Positions 21,406-49,372 of a DNA stretch of 64,000 nucleotides are shown one piece after another. The DNA is from Kordia sp. GTDB taxonomy: Bacteria; Bacteroidota; Bacteroidia; Flavobacteriales; Flavobacteriaceae. Made by a program: the position numbers and the translations under genes. The stretch lies in the NCBI RefSeq assembly GCF_045105435.1, contig NZ_JBGCDL010000137.1:407-64406 (forward strand), given 5' to 3'. Below the pieces are notes generated by a model. The model had not been told where the DNA came from. It worked only from the letters and a program-made list of their open reading frames with translations, and made no database searches. Position 1 is the first letter of the stretch, and each line of letters starts with the position of its first letter.

Positions 21406-21984
21406 ATGATTGAAAAAGCACTACAATTTACAGGAAAAGCACTCAACCAATATGTCAAACAAAAATTTGGCTTGGATGACGATGTTGTCATCGTTAATTC
21501 TATTATTGATCAAAACGGAGTTGTACCTGCAAAAAACCAAAACAAAATCGTTCTTTCGTTAATTCATGTGGAGCAAGAAACCACCAAACAATTCTACAAC
21601 AGGAATCAAAAACTAGGAAATGGAAACTTTGTAAGAGAGCCGTTAAGTCATCGGTACAATCTGTTTACGCTTATCACTCCAAATTTTGACGATTACACAG
21701 AAGCTTTAAAATTTTTAGATGCTTCCATTCAATTTTTTCAAATAAATGAACTCGTTGACGCGACTAAAAACGCACAAATTCCTGCCGAAATAGGTAGACT
21801 TGAATACGAGTTTCAAAAAGGAGAAAACTATATGCAAATGCAAAACTTATGGACAGCACTTGGCGCAAAATACCAACCGTCTGTAATGTATAAAGTTCGC
21901 TTGGTAACAATCACTTCTGATGAAGTAGAAGGATTTGATGCTGCCGTTACACAAATTAGCACAAAAGCAAACGAGAAGTCATGA
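21406..21984 (+). CDS. DUF4255 / Afp16(Pvc16)-like tail terminator-cap protein
   Basis: NKIVLSLIHVEQE, YNLFTLIT, YTEALKFL, FFQ, NLWTALGAKYQPSVMYKVRLV; first gene of the cluster. Confidence 0.88.
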   Translation: MIEKALQFTGKALNQYVKQKFGLDDDVVIVNSIIDQNGVVPAKNQNKIVLSLIHVEQETTKQFYNRNQKLGNGNFVREPLSHRYNLFTLITPNFDDYTEALKFLDASIQFFQINELVDATKNAQIPAEIGRLEYEFQKGENYMQMQNLWTALGAKYQPSVMYKVRLVTITSDEVEGFDAAVTQISTKANEKS

Positions 21985-22799
21985 GTATAACATATACATC
22001 TTTATGTAAAGTAACTGTATCGCATTCATATTATGCATCAAATAACTGTGAATGTATGTTATATGATACAACTACGGAAACAAAAAATGTATGCAATAAA
22101 TACGGGCTTGTTTTACAAAAAACCCAAAACGGATTTGAATTGTACAGTACTACAAATCAATCCATAGAAACCTACCTCAACTATATTTCACAAGTTTCTG
22201 GACAGACAGCTTTTGAATTTTTGGGCACCACTACCGATCAAAATTTTTACAATTTCACCAACATTCCTATCAACGAACTTGGTGTGTTAACGTATGAGAG
22301 CGATCAAACCGTACAAAATACTTCAAACATTCCCATTCAACTCAAAGAAACATTCGTACAAGAGGTTTCCACCCAAAATGCACTAAAAATTACGCTAAAG
22401 TTTGAAGACATTATTCGTTTCTATAAAACAAACAATCCTATTGAATATAGTATTGAACTGCAAGCGCGCGAAACACAATGGATGTATTATATCATTAATA
22501 ATTCCAATCAAGCATACAATCAGCTCGAAATACAAAGTACAGACGAAAACATTCAATTTACAGCTACGGCTGAAATTATATTACAAAATGGCGATAAAGC
22601 ATTGCCGTTTGCATCACAAACAACCAAAATTCCATTAAAAAATGAAGTAACCTACACACTAAACTTAATCAACACAAAAAAAAATATTGCAGGCGAACGA
22701 AAGGAAATCGTTATCAAAGGATTGCCCATTCCGAACCCGAAAAATTTACAAATACAAAACGACCATACAATAGCATCTTCAATATATGTATACATATAA
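21981..22799 (+). CDS. eCIS-associated hypothetical protein, possibly a cap adaptor
   Basis: 4-nt overlap with DUF4255; V.HSYY and W.YYII motifs. The role is inferred from its position between cap and sheath genes. Confidence 0.6.
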   Translation: MSITYTSLCKVTVSHSYYASNNCECMLYDTTTETKNVCNKYGLVLQKTQNGFELYSTTNQSIETYLNYISQVSGQTAFEFLGTTTDQNFYNFTNIPINELGVLTYESDQTVQNTSNIPIQLKETFVQEVSTQNALKITLKFEDIIRFYKTNNPIEYSIELQARETQWMYYIINNSNQAYNQLEIQSTDENIQFTATAEIILQNGDKALPFASQTTKIPLKNEVTYTLNLINTKKNIAGERKEIVIKGLPIPNPKNLQIQNDHTIASSIYVYI

Positions 22800-22856
22800 T
22801 ATGATGCCTTATTCAGTACTTATAAAAAAATTATTACAAACTAATAACTATGTTTT

Positions 22857-47822: not shown

Positions 47823-48746
47823 GTGCAGCTTTTTAAAAATGTGAATCTTTCAAAAATGATGGCTACTACAAACCAGCAATATTATGTAAACACATCTTCT
47901 CCAGAGGAATTGTATAGTAAAAAACATGTTGCGTATCCAAGACCTAAAGGATTGTATACAAGAATTGATGCGAGCTATGCTAAGGGTAAATACCTGTACG
48001 GATGGATTCCGAATGTACGCCTTTTAAATCATCAAGAAAAAAATTTGATATCTGTACCCAAAATGGGAGGAATAATGCACCTAGAATATCAAAAGCCTAA
48101 ATTACGTGGTTGGTTAAAAAGCACTACACATACTTTTGACCTGCAAGCTGAAAAAGCTGCGCTAGAAAACCCACAAAAAAATGCAATAACAGATAAATTA
48201 CCAAAGTTCGGTATTATGGGGAAAAATGATTGTGGTCATTTTGCATCTGCACTTCAAAAATTAATTGCCCATGAAGAACCTAAGAAAACTGGGAAAAGGG
48301 CTGTATCTGAAACACTTGATGCAAATGAACCTACTAATGCTAACAAACTAACGATGGATGTTGGAGATAAAATGCAACATAACTACAATGAAGCCAACTC
48401 AAATAGCCAACACCATGCTGCTACAGTTGTAGCCAAAGATGGTTCAAGTTTGGTCACCTTGGAAGCACATGTGGGGAAATCATTAAAAAAACCTCAATTT
48501 AATATTAGAAACGGCGTAAAAGGATTCGTTGCAGATAATAACGTTGGACATGGTTGGACAGGGAAATACGACCGAGAACTTGGAAGTTCGGTGGATATAG
48601 GTAGAATAGGTACTTTAGAAAAAGGTTCCACTTCTGATAATATGACTACTTATAAAAATAATTATGCCCAAATGAGTGACTACGAAGCTGGTGCTAATGT
48701 TGCCTTTTTAAAAGGTGCACTTGGCATAACTAAAACGGAACATTAA
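47823..48746 (+). CDS. Putative eCIS effector domain with a papain-like Cys/His/Glu pattern, probably the 3' half of the DUF4157 gene
   Basis: NDCGHFA...HHAATVVAKDG..LVTLEAH. The frame is open back to 47727 with no ATG before the track's GTG. Confidence 0.6.
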   Translation: MQLFKNVNLSKMMATTNQQYYVNTSSPEELYSKKHVAYPRPKGLYTRIDASYAKGKYLYGWIPNVRLLNHQEKNLISVPKMGGIMHLEYQKPKLRGWLKSTTHTFDLQAEKAALENPQKNAITDKLPKFGIMGKNDCGHFASALQKLIAHEEPKKTGKRAVSETLDANEPTNANKLTMDVGDKMQHNYNEANSNSQHHAATVVAKDGSSLVTLEAHVGKSLKKPQFNIRNGVKGFVADNNVGHGWTGKYDRELGSSVDIGRIGTLEKGSTSDNMTTYKNNYAQMSDYEAGANVAFLKGALGITKTEH

Positions 48747-48880
48747 AAATTTAAGAAAACATACTCAGATAGATGTTATTTATGAAACTAAAGAATTCAT
48801 ATAAAGTAAAGAGGTAACCTTAGTACACTTTAAATGTCTACCCTTCATCAAATCAATTGAAAAATTTAAAGATATAAATC

Positions 48881-49372
48881 ATGGAATCGTATATAGAGAA
48901 AAACAAAGAACAATCACAATCTGCTTTAATTGTTCAAAAAAAGAAAACTGAAAATAATTCTTTTTTCTTGAAAGACAATCGAAAAAACACAACTCCTATC
49001 CAACGAGTAATCACGATGAAAGGAGAAGGCGGCGCTAAAAGAAGTGATGGAAAATTAAAATCATTAAAAAGTGAAGTTACTAAAACAATAAGCACAAATA
49101 AACCTTCCGATATGCTAGAAACTATTGACCAACTGGAGCAGTCCATTGATTCTAGAGAAAGAGAACAAGCCAGAAATACCAAAGGAACAGCAAAATATAA
49201 TTCAGAACAATATCGGATAGATCAAGAAGAAATATTACTTGGCAAACTTAGAAGAGCACGTGAAATCGATTTAGCTACAAGAAAACAAGCAAAAGCAGCC
49301 GCTGAAGCTAAAAGACAAGCAGGAGCGCCAAAAGGATTTAAAGTAGTTGGCAAAAAAGGAAAGGCTAAATAA
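48881..49372 (+). CDS. Putative small eCIS cargo protein with a DUF4157-type leader
   Basis: N-terminal FLKDNR...PIQR leader, helical body and Lys-rich tail. Confidence 0.6.
   Translation: MESYIEKNKEQSQSALIVQKKKTENNSFFLKDNRKNTTPIQRVITMKGEGGAKRSDGKLKSLKSEVTKTISTNKPSDMLETIDQLEQSIDSREREQARNTKGTAKYNSEQYRIDQEEILLGKLRRAREIDLATRKQAKAAAEAKRQAGAPKGFKVVGKKGKAK

What the first reader, a model, noticed from the sequence alone, without database searches (positions are those of the whole stretch)
21406..49372. Complete single-sheath Bacteroidota eCIS with no identifiable tail-fibre gene
Seen: cap, putative adaptor, one sheath, two tubes, small plug-like ORF, Afp7-like, VgrG, PAAR, gp25, two wedges, tape measure and ATPase are all co-oriented. 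The Afp12-like wedge overlaps the tape measure gene by 8 nt, leaving no room for an Afp13-type fibre there, and no other ORF in the cluster looks like a fibre. Known: Afp, PVC and AlgoCIS loci encode fibre proteins, and the PVC fibre determines target specificity. Inference: target recognition uses another part (wedge insertions, the 790-aa protein, or an unlinked gene), or the particle works while cell-attached.
Basis: partly seen in the sequence, partly recalled or inferred. Interest (0 to 1): 0.68.

Follow-up and report, generated by a model that had tools for sequence, protein, structure and literature searches.

The report
Fibre-less contractile injection system in Kordia
This is a complete phage-tail-like injection machine of a widespread but unstudied Bacteroidota lineage that really has no gene like any known tail fibre; missing fibre genes are already a recognised gap in this field, and here four conserved unknown genes, led by a 790-residue protein, sit where other systems carry the fibre.

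Summary
Window 21406-49372 is one co-oriented clade-Ib contractile injection system (CIS) locus in a Kordia genome. It has a cap, one sheath, two tubes, a 56-aa plug-like ORF, Cis7, VgrG, PAAR, gp25, Cis11, Cis12, a 1404-aa tape measure, an AAA ATPase and DUF4157 cargo. Cis12 and the tape measure overlap by 8 nt (ATGCATAG).

No cluster protein matches a known fibre by Pfam, PHROGs, NCBIfam, PDB sequence search or fold search.

This is a lineage trait. In 14 Kordia species and about 80 loci from Flavobacteriia, Sphingobacteriia and Chitinophagia the order is fixed: Cis11, Cis12, TMP, p790, p290, p307a, ATPase, p170, cargo. None of them carries an Alg19 gene.

The same genome has a second, AlgoCIS-type locus on another contig with a true Alg19 fibre. 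However, 13 of 24 other genomes with the window-type locus have no Alg19 anywhere.

The best in-cluster candidate for the peripheral part is p790. It has a conserved N-terminal helical bundle, variable Ig/FN3-like and helical parts, and no cargo leader. This role is inferred, not shown.

Published surveys already report that many eCIS operons, including Bacteroidota ones, have no detectable fibre gene. Novelty is therefore moderate: an uncharacterised variant of a known kind.

The parts
21406..21984 (+). Cap protein (Cis16A/Afp16-like), 192 aa
   Evidence: Pfam Pvc16_N, 7.7e-23.
21981..22799 (+). 272-aa protein in the position of the cap adaptor (Alg16B)
   Evidence: Assigned by position only. 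No Pfam, PHROG, NCBIfam or PDB match. AlgoCIS gene order.
22857..24437 (+). Single sheath protein, 526 aa
   Evidence: Pfam Phage_sheath_1C 9e-14. Best PDB matches: SalCIS sheath 9r9h 6e-105, AlgoCIS Alg2 2.5e-82.
24667..25131 (+). Inner tube protein (Cis1), 154 aa
   Evidence: Pfam Phage_T4_gp19, 6.7e-42.
25121..25558 (+). Second tube protein (Cis5-like tube initiator), 145 aa
   Evidence: Pfam Phage_T4_gp19, 2.9e-35.
25576..25746 (+). 56-aa ORF in the position of the spike plug (Alg6, 52 aa)
   Evidence: ORF listing. The assignment rests on position and size only.
25756..26427 (+). Cis7/Afp7-like tube-baseplate protein, 223 aa
   Evidence: Pfam CIS_tube, 3.1e-49.
26433..28229 (+). VgrG spike (ORF opens at 26313; likely start is Met41 at 26433)
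   Evidence: Pfam Phage_base_V 5e-18 and Phage_GPD. Start inferred from the sequence and from a 599-aa orthologue.
28489..28788 (+). PAAR spike tip, 99 aa
   Evidence: Pfam PAAR_motif, 1.2e-24.
28781..29209 (+). gp25-like sheath initiator (Cis9), 142 aa
   Evidence: Pfam GPW_gp25, 6.2e-17.
29219..33949 (+). Cis11 (gp6-like wedge/cage protein), 1576 aa. Residues about 228-405 form a helical insert that Pedobacter orthologues lack.
   Evidence: PDB matches: All3317 3e-37, Alg11 3.4e-34, SalCis11 4.5e-28. Insert mapped.
33949..36819 (+). Cis12 (gp6/gp7-like outer wedge), 956 aa. Only the N-terminal 434 aa or so align to solved Cis12 proteins.
   Evidence: PDB matches: Alg12 1.4e-38, All3315 2.4e-38, SalCis12 4e-23, Afp12, Pvc12.
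36812..41026 (+). Tape measure protein, 1404 aa, overlapping Cis12 by 8 nt
   Evidence: Pfam CIS_TMP 6e-87 on residues 974-1402. Overlap read directly from the sequence.
41164..43536 (+). p790, a lineage-specific conserved protein. N-terminal helical bundle (2-244), Ig/FN3-like beta region (249-480), helical hairpin (491-596), small C-terminal domain. Best in-cluster candidate for a peripheral, target- or envelope-contacting part.
   Evidence: AF2 models with pLDDT 78 and 85. Fold searches. Orthologue present in all 80 related loci. Conservation profile. No cargo leader motif in 0 of 80.
43555..44427 (+). p290, a helix-rich lineage-specific protein that always follows p790
   Evidence: Synteny. 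No family hit.
44474..45397 (+). p307a, a highly conserved lineage-specific protein just before the ATPase
   Evidence: 72-95% identical within Kordia and above 60% across Bacteroidota. No Pfam or PDB hit.
45363..46742 (+). AAA+ ATPase (Cis15), 459 aa
   Evidence: Pfam AAA, 2.1e-27.
46756..47268 (+). p170, a conserved lineage-specific small protein after the ATPase
   Evidence: Synteny. No family hit.
47225..47785 (+). DUF4157/eCIS_core protein, 186 aa. Cargo class; short compared with congeners (237-594 aa).
   Evidence: Pfam eCIS_core 2.2e-12. Variable C-termini in relatives. Leader motif L-E-D-N-R.
47823..48746 (+). p307b, a variable putative cargo protein
   Evidence: A homologue in only 1 of 80 related loci. 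No family hit.
48881..49372 (+). p163, a small basic protein with the cargo-type N-terminal motif (FLKDNR...PIQR)
   Evidence: Motif found. Poorly conserved.

Best explanation
The interval is a complete, chromosomally fixed contractile injection system of clade Ib. It belongs to a lineage distinct from the characterised AlgoCIS, SalCIS/T6SSiv, tCIS and Afp/PVC systems. The lineage has no homologue of any described CIS fibre: Afp13/Pvc13, the Alg19/tCIS-crown type, or the small Aasi_0556/SalCis13 type. In place of Alg19 before the tape measure, it carries four strictly conserved lineage-specific genes around the tape measure and ATPase: p790, p290, p307a and p170. I propose, as an inference, that p790 (probably with p290) is the peripheral baseplate appendage of this lineage. 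Its conserved N-terminal helical bundle would dock on the Cis11/Cis12 wedge. Its fast-evolving Ig/FN3-like and helical distal parts would contact the target surface, or the producer's envelope if the machine fires while cell-attached. Firing, spike and tube expulsion, and delivery of DUF4157-type cargo would then follow as in other CISs. Shown here: gene content, the closed Cis12-TMP junction, lineage-wide synteny, absence of fibre homologues, and the p790 architecture and conservation pattern. Inferred: that p790 is part of the particle and what it binds.
For: Core CIS parts were identified by Pfam and PDB. The gene order matches AlgoCIS except that Alg19 is missing. The 8-nt Cis12/TMP overlap was read from the sequence. 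The order Cis12, TMP, p790, p290, p307a, ATPase, p170, DUF4157 cargo holds in 14 Kordia species. It also holds in about 80 loci from Kordia, Tenacibaculum, Dokdonia, Flavobacterium, Pedobacter, Mucilaginibacter and Chitinophagaceae, none of which has an Alg19 hit. Thirteen of 24 genomes with this locus type lack Alg19 genome-wide. p790, p290, p307a and p170 have no counterpart in the second, AlgoCIS-type locus of the same genome, and Alg19 has none here. p790 is the fastest-evolving conserved component: 42-49% identity in all but the two closest Kordia relatives, against 52-86% for Cis12 and 76-91% for the ATPase. Its residues 1-250 are conserved (0.53-0.86 per 30-residue block), while its distal blocks fall to 0.20-0.35. 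This pattern, a conserved N-terminus with variable distal domains, is the one reported for eCIS fibres (PMC12923769). The AF2 models show a long helical bundle, then beta-sandwiches with weak FN3/Ig and carbohydrate-binding-like matches, then a helical hairpin. The cargo leader motif [LFVIM]xDNR occurs in 80 of 96 DUF4157 proteins and 97 of 245 unclassified ORFs in these loci. It occurs in 0 of 80 p790, 0 of 78 p290, 0 of 76 p307a and 0 of 59 p170, so these four are not cargo of that class.
Against: No fold or sequence match ties p790 to any known fibre, receptor-binding protein or baseplate protein. All Foldseek hits are weak: none in PDB reaches E <= 0.001, and the viral-library hits reach 1.8e-5 but with TM <= 0.28. 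They come from coiled coils or generic beta-sandwiches. A monomer model cannot show trimerisation. There is no proteomic or imaging evidence that p790 is in the particle. Its C-terminal 60 residues are conserved rather than variable, unlike many receptor-binding tips. Long Ala/Ser/Thr-rich helical bundles also occur in membrane-active proteins; the weak hits include Tc-toxin shells and AhlC. The closest solved sheath is that of SalCIS, which is thought to be membrane-associated.
Confidence: 0.45

Rival explanations
1. The system works like a subtype-iv type VI secretion system or SalCIS. It stays attached to the producer's inner membrane, fires through the envelope on cell contact, and needs no target-binding fibre. 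p790 and p290 would then be anchors or unrelated accessories.
For: The sheath is closest to SalCIS among solved structures (6e-105, against 2.5e-82 for AlgoCIS). The tape measure is 1404 aa against 537 aa in AlgoCIS, which suggests a long machine like Aureispira T6SSiv (420 nm) or SalCIS (600 nm). T6SSiv, BIS and SalCIS also lack Afp13 and Alg19 fibres. The producer is a gliding-type marine Flavobacteriaceae, for which contact-dependent killing is plausible (background knowledge).
Against: The defining accessories of that group were not found. No cluster protein has a transmembrane-like segment except amphipathic helices in a Kordia-specific Cis11 insert. The upstream 827-aa membrane protein is a Wzy_C/TPR protein with no match to SalCis20. 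Searches with the printed Aasi_0556/BDI_2455 sequences hit nothing in this genome. The N-terminal motif of that fibre class is absent from all 80 related loci. Cis11 and Cis12 are closer to AlgoCIS and tCIS than to SalCIS.
Confidence: 0.25
2. Target recognition lies in the enlarged wedge and cage proteins: Cis11 insertions and the variable C-terminal third of Cis12. p790, p290, p307a and p170 are assembly factors, chaperones or regulators that are not part of the mature particle.
For: Cis11 is 1576 aa here against 1050 aa in AlgoCIS, with lineage- and genus-specific insertions. The AlgoCIS cage carries putative carbohydrate-binding modules proposed to bind a secondary receptor. Cis12 residues 601-956 are its most variable part (0.32-0.68). 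p307a sits beside the ATPase and is very conserved, as expected of an assembly factor. In AlgoCIS a non-structural TPR protein occupies that position.
Against: The large Cis11 insert at 228-405 is missing in Pedobacter orthologues, so it cannot be the general solution. An assembly factor would not be expected to evolve faster than every structural protein, or to carry hypervariable beta-sandwich and hairpin segments as p790 does.
Confidence: 0.2
3. The fibre is encoded elsewhere. Candidates are the Alg19 homologue of the second CIS locus (C151:32615-37843) and small unlinked proteins with the N-terminal motif YFxxGxxPT...F..LIDS (C324:5903-6703 and C413:2341-3051).
For: An Alg19 homologue exists in the genome (4e-97 to 9wt0_a). 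Two small fibre-like ORFs carry the motif typical of Aasi_0556-class proteins; one has a phage tail Collar domain. In Amoebophilus the Cis13 gene is unlinked from the main cluster.
Against: Alg19 sits inside its own complete locus, next to its own Cis12, which is only about 27-31% identical to the window's Cis12 and only over the N-terminal half. Thirteen of 24 genomes with the window-type locus have no Alg19. The 266-aa protein has no full-length homologue in three Kordia genomes that do have the locus (G008, G009, G015). The Collar protein lies next to lysis-like genes, which looks like a prophage remnant.
Confidence: 0.07

Closest known systems
AlgoCIS of Algoriphagus machipongonensis (clade Ib eCIS; PMC8894135, PMC13314943)
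   Same: The gene order is identical from cap to ATPase: 16A, 16B position, one sheath, Cis1, Cis5, small plug ORF, Cis7, VgrG, PAAR, gp25, Cis11, Cis12, TMP, cargo and ATPase. Both have DUF4157 cargo. Cis11 and Cis12 match at 3e-34 and 1e-38.
   Different: There is no Alg19 fibre between Cis12 and the TMP. The TMP is 1404 aa against 537 aa and the sheath 526 aa against 692 aa. There are four extra conserved genes (p790, p290, p307a, p170) and no TPR protein. The C-terminal half of Cis12, which docks Alg19 in AlgoCIS, shows no detectable similarity. A genuine AlgoCIS-type locus exists separately in the same genome.
SalCIS of Salmonella enterica subsp. salamae and T6SS subtype iv (Amoebophilus, Aureispira), plus Bacteroidales injection systems
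   Same: All are clade Ib with a single sheath of about 520 aa. The window's sheath has its best solved match here. All have a cage-forming extended Cis11, a long tape measure, and neither Afp13 nor Alg19.
   Different: No homologue of the SalCis13/Aasi_0556 small trimer or of the SalCis20 membrane hydrolase was found in the cluster. Cis11 and Cis12 score lower against SalCIS than against AlgoCIS and tCIS. p790 and p290 are not described for those systems in the papers read.
Afp and PVC (canonical eCIS)
   Same: They share the core parts Afp1-12 and 14-16 and the AAA ATPase.
   Different: This locus has one sheath gene instead of three and no Afp13/Pvc13 adenovirus-like fibre. Its Cis11 and Cis12 are much larger and cage-forming.
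Catalogued 'fibre-less' eCIS operons of Bacteroidota (eCIStem of Geller et al. 2021; Nachmias et al. 2026)
   Same: The surveys report eCIS operons in Flavobacterium, Mucilaginibacter and Parafilimonas with 'No afp13 in operon'. Loci without fibre candidates were set aside as possibly intracellular or using unknown mechanisms. In the catalogue, the first Kordia entries fall in the eBAP4 (Alg19-type) section, so none appears under eBAP1-3.
   Different: Those surveys do not describe the conserved p790, p290, p307a and p170 module or propose a substitute for the fibre. I did not check whether their listed operons are the same lineage.

Membership tests
Afp/PVC-like CIS superfamily (eCIS sensu lato, clade I) | Contractile sheath, gp19-type tube, Cis7 tube-baseplate protein, VgrG with PAAR, and gp25 | tested here: met
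   Pfam hits with E-values from 1e-14 to 1e-49. The sheath matches solved CIS sheaths.
Afp/PVC-like CIS superfamily (eCIS sensu lato, clade I) | Cis11 and Cis12 wedge pair, CIS tape measure, Pvc16_N cap and AAA+ ATPase (features that separate it from phage tails, pyocins and T6SS i-iii) | tested here: met
   Cis12 and Cis11 match solved chains. CIS_TMP 6e-87, AAA 2e-27, Pvc16_N 8e-23.
AlgoCIS-type eCIS | Alg19 fibre (TssK-like shoulder, Ig-rich; eBAP4) encoded between Cis12 and the TMP | tested here: not met
   An 8-nt overlap closes the junction. No cluster protein matches 9WT0 or All3314. No Alg19 hit in 80 related loci.
AlgoCIS-type eCIS | Cap adaptor Alg16B and lumen plug Alg6 | tested here: inconclusive
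   ORFs of matching size lie in the matching positions (272 aa and 56 aa), but there is no sequence similarity.
AlgoCIS-type eCIS | Particles released to the medium and not membrane-anchored | not testable with these tools
   This needs cryo-tomography and analysis of culture supernatant.
SalCIS / T6SS subtype iv group (membrane-associated clade Ib CIS) | Small trimeric Cis13 (Aasi_0556, SalCis13, BDI_2455; eBAP2 N-terminus) | tested here: not met
   phmmer with the sequences printed in PMC12210884 found nothing significant in the genome; those sequences were machine-read and may carry errors. The N-terminal motif is absent from the cluster and from 80 related loci.
SalCIS / T6SS subtype iv group (membrane-associated clade Ib CIS) | SalCis20-type integral membrane protein with a peptidoglycan hydrolase domain in the operon | tested here: not met
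   No transmembrane-like segment in the accessory proteins. The upstream membrane protein is Wzy_C/TPR with no 9R9A match. None of the eight window proteins searched against PDB matched 9R9A.
SalCIS / T6SS subtype iv group (membrane-associated clade Ib CIS) | Baseplate anchored to the inner membrane in situ | not testable with these tools
   This needs cryo-tomography of cells.
Afp/PVC canonical eCIS | Afp13/Pvc13 beta-spiral fibre and three sheath paralogues | tested here: not met
   There is one sheath gene. No fibre family hit in Pfam, PHROGs or NCBIfam.

The most novel reading that the evidence does not exclude
p790, with p290, is a sixth, uncatalogued class of CIS baseplate appendage. It would be a helical-bundle 'fibre' carrying hypervariable Ig/FN3-like modules. 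It would have replaced the Alg19-type fibre in a Bacteroidota-wide CIS lineage found in at least 124 species, and it would set target range. Many operons now filed as 'fibre-less' would then have a recognisable specificity determinant.
Probability: 0.3. Interest if true: 0.6.

Novelty: new variant of a known kind. Interest (0 to 1): 0.4.

Why it matters
Tail fibres decide what a contractile injection system hits, and they are the part that is re-engineered for protein delivery. Afp13/Pvc13-like genes were detected in only 44% of eCIS operons, and the published fibre catalogue set aside loci without fibre candidates. This locus defines one such lineage cleanly. It has fixed synteny across three Bacteroidota classes. 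Cultured hosts exist (Kordia algicida OT-1, Tenacibaculum, Flavobacterium, Pedobacter). In Kordia an AlgoCIS-type locus with a normal fibre sits in the same genome as an internal comparison. The analysis narrows the search for the missing specificity or anchoring part to one protein pair that can be tested directly. If p790 is not the answer, the lineage becomes a good case for asking whether fibre-less CISs act while cell-attached.

Tried and rejected
- **Family and sequence searches.** Pfam, PHROGs and NCBIfam scans of all unknown cluster proteins gave no informative hit. PDB sequence searches with p790 alone, the p790 family profile, the 272-aa protein, the TMP and p307a gave nothing or only coiled-coil noise.
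- **Fold searches.** Full-length p790 against PDB and viral models gave only long-helix matches with TM below 0.3, including Tc-toxin shells, SMC, chemoreceptors and some proteins annotated as tail fibres. I rejected these as evidence of homology. The isolated beta region gave only generic FN3/Ig and carbohydrate-binding-like similarity at E above 0.02.
- **SalCis20 candidate.** The upstream 827-aa membrane protein is an O-antigen-ligase/TPR protein, not a SalCis20 equivalent.
- **Aasi_0556/BDI_2455 homologue.** A search with sequences read from a supplementary figure found nothing significant. These were machine-read and possibly imperfect.
- **Extra ORFs in Tenacibaculum.** The 240-265-aa ORFs between p290 and p307a in some Tenacibaculum loci are not small fibres. 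They are charged, cargo-like proteins carrying the DNR leader.
- **p290 as a paralogue of the p790 N-terminus.** BLAST found no similarity.
- **Promoter and terminator scan of 36000-50500.** Not above chance, and no + strand terminator-like site between genes; the only one lies inside the TMP gene.
- **Earlier notes of this scan.** They held only a first-reader note on the p790/p290 pair.

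
Full report
**What is there.** The interval 21406-49372 holds 21 co-oriented + strand genes with short gaps or overlaps. AT skew is positive throughout the interval, and GC content (0.32-0.40) is close to that of the flanks (0.29-0.38).

Profile searches identify the following parts:
- a Pvc16_N cap
- a single sheath
- two gp19-type tube proteins
- a CIS_tube (Afp7-like) protein
- VgrG, PAAR and gp25
- a tape measure with a C-terminal CIS_TMP domain (6e-87)
- an AAA ATPase
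- a DUF4157/eCIS_core protein

The two large proteins between gp25 and the tape measure have no Pfam hit. They match solved Cis11 and Cis12 chains of AlgoCIS, the cyanobacterial tCIS, SalCIS, Afp and PVC. A 56-aa ORF at 25576-25746 lies where AlgoCIS has its 52-aa plug.

The Cis12 stop and the tape-measure start share ATGCATAG, an 8-nt overlap at 36812-36819. Two small corrections apply. VgrG most likely starts at 26433. The 'adaptor' label for the 272-aa protein rests on position alone.

**Flanks and host.** The flanks are ordinary chromosomal genes: a Wzy_C/TPR membrane protein upstream and an EamA transporter downstream. Source names for the homologues place the genome in Kordia, family Flavobacteriaceae.

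**Comparison with AlgoCIS.** The published AlgoCIS gene table gives this order: 16A, 16B, sheath, Cis1, Cis5, plug, Cis7, VgrG, PAAR, gp25, Cis11, Cis12, Alg19, TMP, two DUF4157 cargo proteins, a TPR protein, ATPase (PMC8894135 Supplementary Table 1).

The window has the same order except in two places. The 1443-aa fibre Alg19 is missing at the Cis12-TMP junction. The stretch between TMP and ATPase holds three different genes. Alg19 is not an Afp13 homologue. It has a TssK-like shoulder and Ig-rich distal part, forms trimers that bridge neighbouring wedges through the Cis12 C-terminus, and mediates binding to bacterial cells.

**Is a fibre hidden in the cluster?** No unknown cluster protein matches a fibre family in Pfam, PHROGs or NCBIfam. 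The PDB copy used contains the AlgoCIS fibre (9WT0) and the tCIS crown protein (7B5H). Neither p790 nor its family profile matches them.

An AlphaFold2 model of p790, built on 52 homologues, has mean pLDDT 78. It shows:
- three long helices (residues 2-244)
- a beta-rich region (249-480)
- a second helical hairpin (491-596)
- a small C-terminal domain

Foldseek finds only coiled-coil-driven matches with TM below 0.3. A separate model of residues 245-490 (pLDDT 85) gives only weak similarity to FN3/Ig and carbohydrate-binding-like sandwiches, with no hit at E <= 0.001. No known fibre fold can be assigned to any cluster protein.

**A second locus in the same genome.** A whole-genome search with Cis12 found a second, 30%-identical copy on contig C151 in this genome. 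Nearly every other Kordia genome searched also carries both copies. That contig carries a complete AlgoCIS-type locus: 692-aa sheath, 1063-aa Cis11, 939-aa Cis12, a 1742-aa ORF, then a 581-aa tape measure.

The 1742-aa ORF matches the AlgoCIS fibre chain 9wt0_a at 4e-97 and the tCIS crown protein at 3e-48. The genome therefore does encode a fibre homologue, but inside its own system. All core parts of the two loci are homologous. p790, p290, p307a, p170 and the 272-aa protein have no counterpart in the second locus, and Alg19 has none in the window.

I then searched 24 non-Kordia genomes that carry the window-type locus. Thirteen have no Alg19 homologue anywhere. Borrowing the other system's fibre therefore cannot be the general solution.

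**Lineage-wide synteny.** In 14 Kordia species the order is conserved: Cis12, TMP, p790, p290, p307a, ATPase, p170, then a DUF4157 protein with a variable C-terminus. In most of them an eamA gene follows within a few kilobases.

A scan of one genome per species found the p790 family in at least 124 species. These include Kordia, Tenacibaculum, Dokdonia, Aquimarina, Winogradskyella, Flavobacterium, Pedobacter, Mucilaginibacter, Sediminibacterium and Chitinophagaceae.

In nearly all of the 80 loci fetched, the same module (Cis11, Cis12, TMP, p790, p290, p307a, ATPase, p170, cargo) recurs. There is no ORF between Cis12 and TMP and no Alg19 hit. An even sample of 400 Bacteroidota genomes gave clear matches in about 1%. 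This is a coherent, moderately rare, widely spread CIS lineage whose lack of known fibre genes is ancestral and not a local deletion.

**What the accessory genes look like.** Across the 14 Kordia loci, identity to the window protein runs as follows. Two close relatives (79% and 67% for p790) lie above the p790 range given.

| Protein | Identity to window |
|---|---|
| p790 | 42-49% |
| p290 | 52-60% (86% in the closest relative) |
| Cis12 | 52-86% |
| ATPase | 76-91% |
| p307a | 73-95% |

Along p790, residues 1-250 are conserved, at 0.53-0.86 per 30-residue block, and most blocks are above 0.7. Blocks 331-360, 421-450, 511-600 and 631-720 drop to 0.20-0.35. Short segments at 601-630 and 721-780 are conserved.

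A short N-terminal motif, [LFVIM]xDNR, marks cargo-class proteins. The window examples are LEDNR in the DUF4157 protein and FLKDNR...PIQR in p163. Counts are:
- 80 of 96 DUF4157 proteins
- 97 of 245 unclassified ORFs of 100 aa or more in these loci
- 0 of 80 p790, 0 of 78 p290, 0 of 76 p307a, 0 of 59 p170
- 11 of 4543 ORFs genome-wide

The four proteins are single-copy, strictly syntenic and lack the leader, while cargo varies from species to species. They therefore behave as structural or assembly components and not as cargo.

**Mode of action.** Among solved structures the window's sheath is closest to SalCIS (6e-105), ahead of AlgoCIS (2.5e-82). SalCIS, the Amoebophilus and Aureispira T6SSiv and the gut Bacteroidales systems lack Afp13 and Alg19 fibres. 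They are thought to act while attached to the inner membrane, through a small Cis13 trimer and, in SalCIS, a membrane hydrolase SalCis20.

I found neither accessory here:
- No accessory protein has a transmembrane-like segment.
- The upstream membrane protein is unrelated to SalCis20.
- The printed Aasi_0556/BDI_2455 sequences hit nothing in the genome.
- The N-terminal motif of that class is absent from the cluster and from all 80 related loci.

Two unlinked small ORFs do carry that motif: C324:5903-6703 and C413:2341-3051. The C324 protein has no full-length homologue in three Kordia genomes that have the locus (G008, G009, G015). The C413 protein is a Collar-domain protein next to lysis-like genes.

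The hydrophobic helices in Cis11 (residues about 228-405) are amphipathic and missing from Pedobacter orthologues. The 1404-aa tape measure suggests a long particle, but that is an inference. The data do not decide between a released and a cell-attached mode.

**Best reading.** The locus is a functional-looking clade-Ib CIS of an uncharacterised lineage. In it, a lineage-specific gene set has taken the genomic and probably the functional place of the Alg19 fibre. p790, with p290, is the most likely peripheral appendage (confidence about 0.45).

The rivals are:
- a T6SSiv-like, cell-anchored machine that needs no fibre (0.25)
- recognition by the enlarged Cis11/Cis12 cage, with p790 and its neighbours as assembly factors (0.2)
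- an unlinked fibre (0.07)

**Novelty.** Missing fibre genes are well documented. Afp13/Pvc13-like genes were found in 44% of eCIS operons, and loci without fibre candidates were excluded from the 2026 fibre catalogue as possibly intracellular or using unknown mechanisms. 'No afp13 in operon' is printed for Flavobacterium, Mucilaginibacter and Parafilimonas eCIS. In that catalogue the first Kordia entries fall in the Alg19-type (eBAP4) section, so none appears under eBAP1-3.

What I did not find described in the papers read is the conserved p790, p290, p307a and p170 module and its complementary distribution with Alg19. I rate the locus a new variant of a known kind, with moderate interest.

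Noticed in passing
own genome contig C151:18803-46103 (outside the window): A second, complete AlgoCIS-type CIS locus with a 1742-aa Alg19 fibre homologue (32615-37843; 4e-97 to PDB 9wt0_a). Nearly all Kordia genomes searched carry both CIS types.
   Followed up: yes
window 47225-47785 and 48881-49372; downstream ORFs in L035-L114: An N-terminal motif [LFVIM]xDNR, often followed by ..IQR, marks 80 of 96 DUF4157 proteins and 97 of 245 unclassified ORFs in the loci. No p790, p290, p307a, p170, Cis11, Cis12 or ATPase orthologue carries it (1 of 78 TMP orthologues does). Genome background is 11 of 4543. It looks like a cargo-loading leader.
   Followed up: partly
window 28234-28290 and 28339-28395: A 57-nt direct repeat (84% identical, 105 nt apart) fills the unusually long 260-nt gap between VgrG and PAAR.
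   Followed up: no
window 29219-33949, protein residues about 228-405: Kordia Cis11 carries an insert of about 175 aa made of strongly amphipathic, hydrophobic helices. Pedobacter orthologues (1210-1233 aa) lack it. It recalls the helical Cis11 extension reported for SalCIS.
   Followed up: partly
L035-L114 (tape measure genes): Tape-measure lengths fall into discrete classes across the lineage: about 934-960 aa in Pedobacter, about 1231 aa in many Flavobacterium, about 1400 aa in most others, and 1530-1606 aa in some Kordia. This suggests stepwise differences in particle length.
   Followed up: no
own genome contig C413:1008-3051 (minus strand): A 236-aa protein with a phage tail Collar domain and the N-terminal motif YFETGDRPT..F..LIDS lies next to a putative cell-wall hydrolase-like ORF and a three-helix membrane ORF. 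This looks like a prophage remnant or lysis cassette.
   Followed up: partly
own genome contig C324:5903-6703: A 266-aa protein with the same N-terminal motif follows a 1889-aa ORF. Its N-terminal 130-147 aa are shared with proteins of different C-termini in other Kordia, so it is modular and fibre-like. It is unlinked to either CIS locus and has no full-length homologue in three Kordia genomes (G008, G009, G015).
   Followed up: partly
window 47225-48746: The DUF4157 protein is only 186 aa, against 237-594 aa in congeners. It is followed 38 nt later by a 307-aa ORF found in only 1 of 80 related loci. That ORF has a Cys...His pattern (NDCGHF ... HHAATVV ... LEAH) suggestive of a cysteine hydrolase-type effector.
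   Followed up: no
L050, L052, L061, L062, L063, L067, L069 at about 12900-13700: Some Tenacibaculum-type loci have an extra 241-265-aa highly charged ORF between p290 and p307a. It carries the DNR leader and a DIDH...H motif and may be an HNH-like nuclease cargo.
   Followed up: partly
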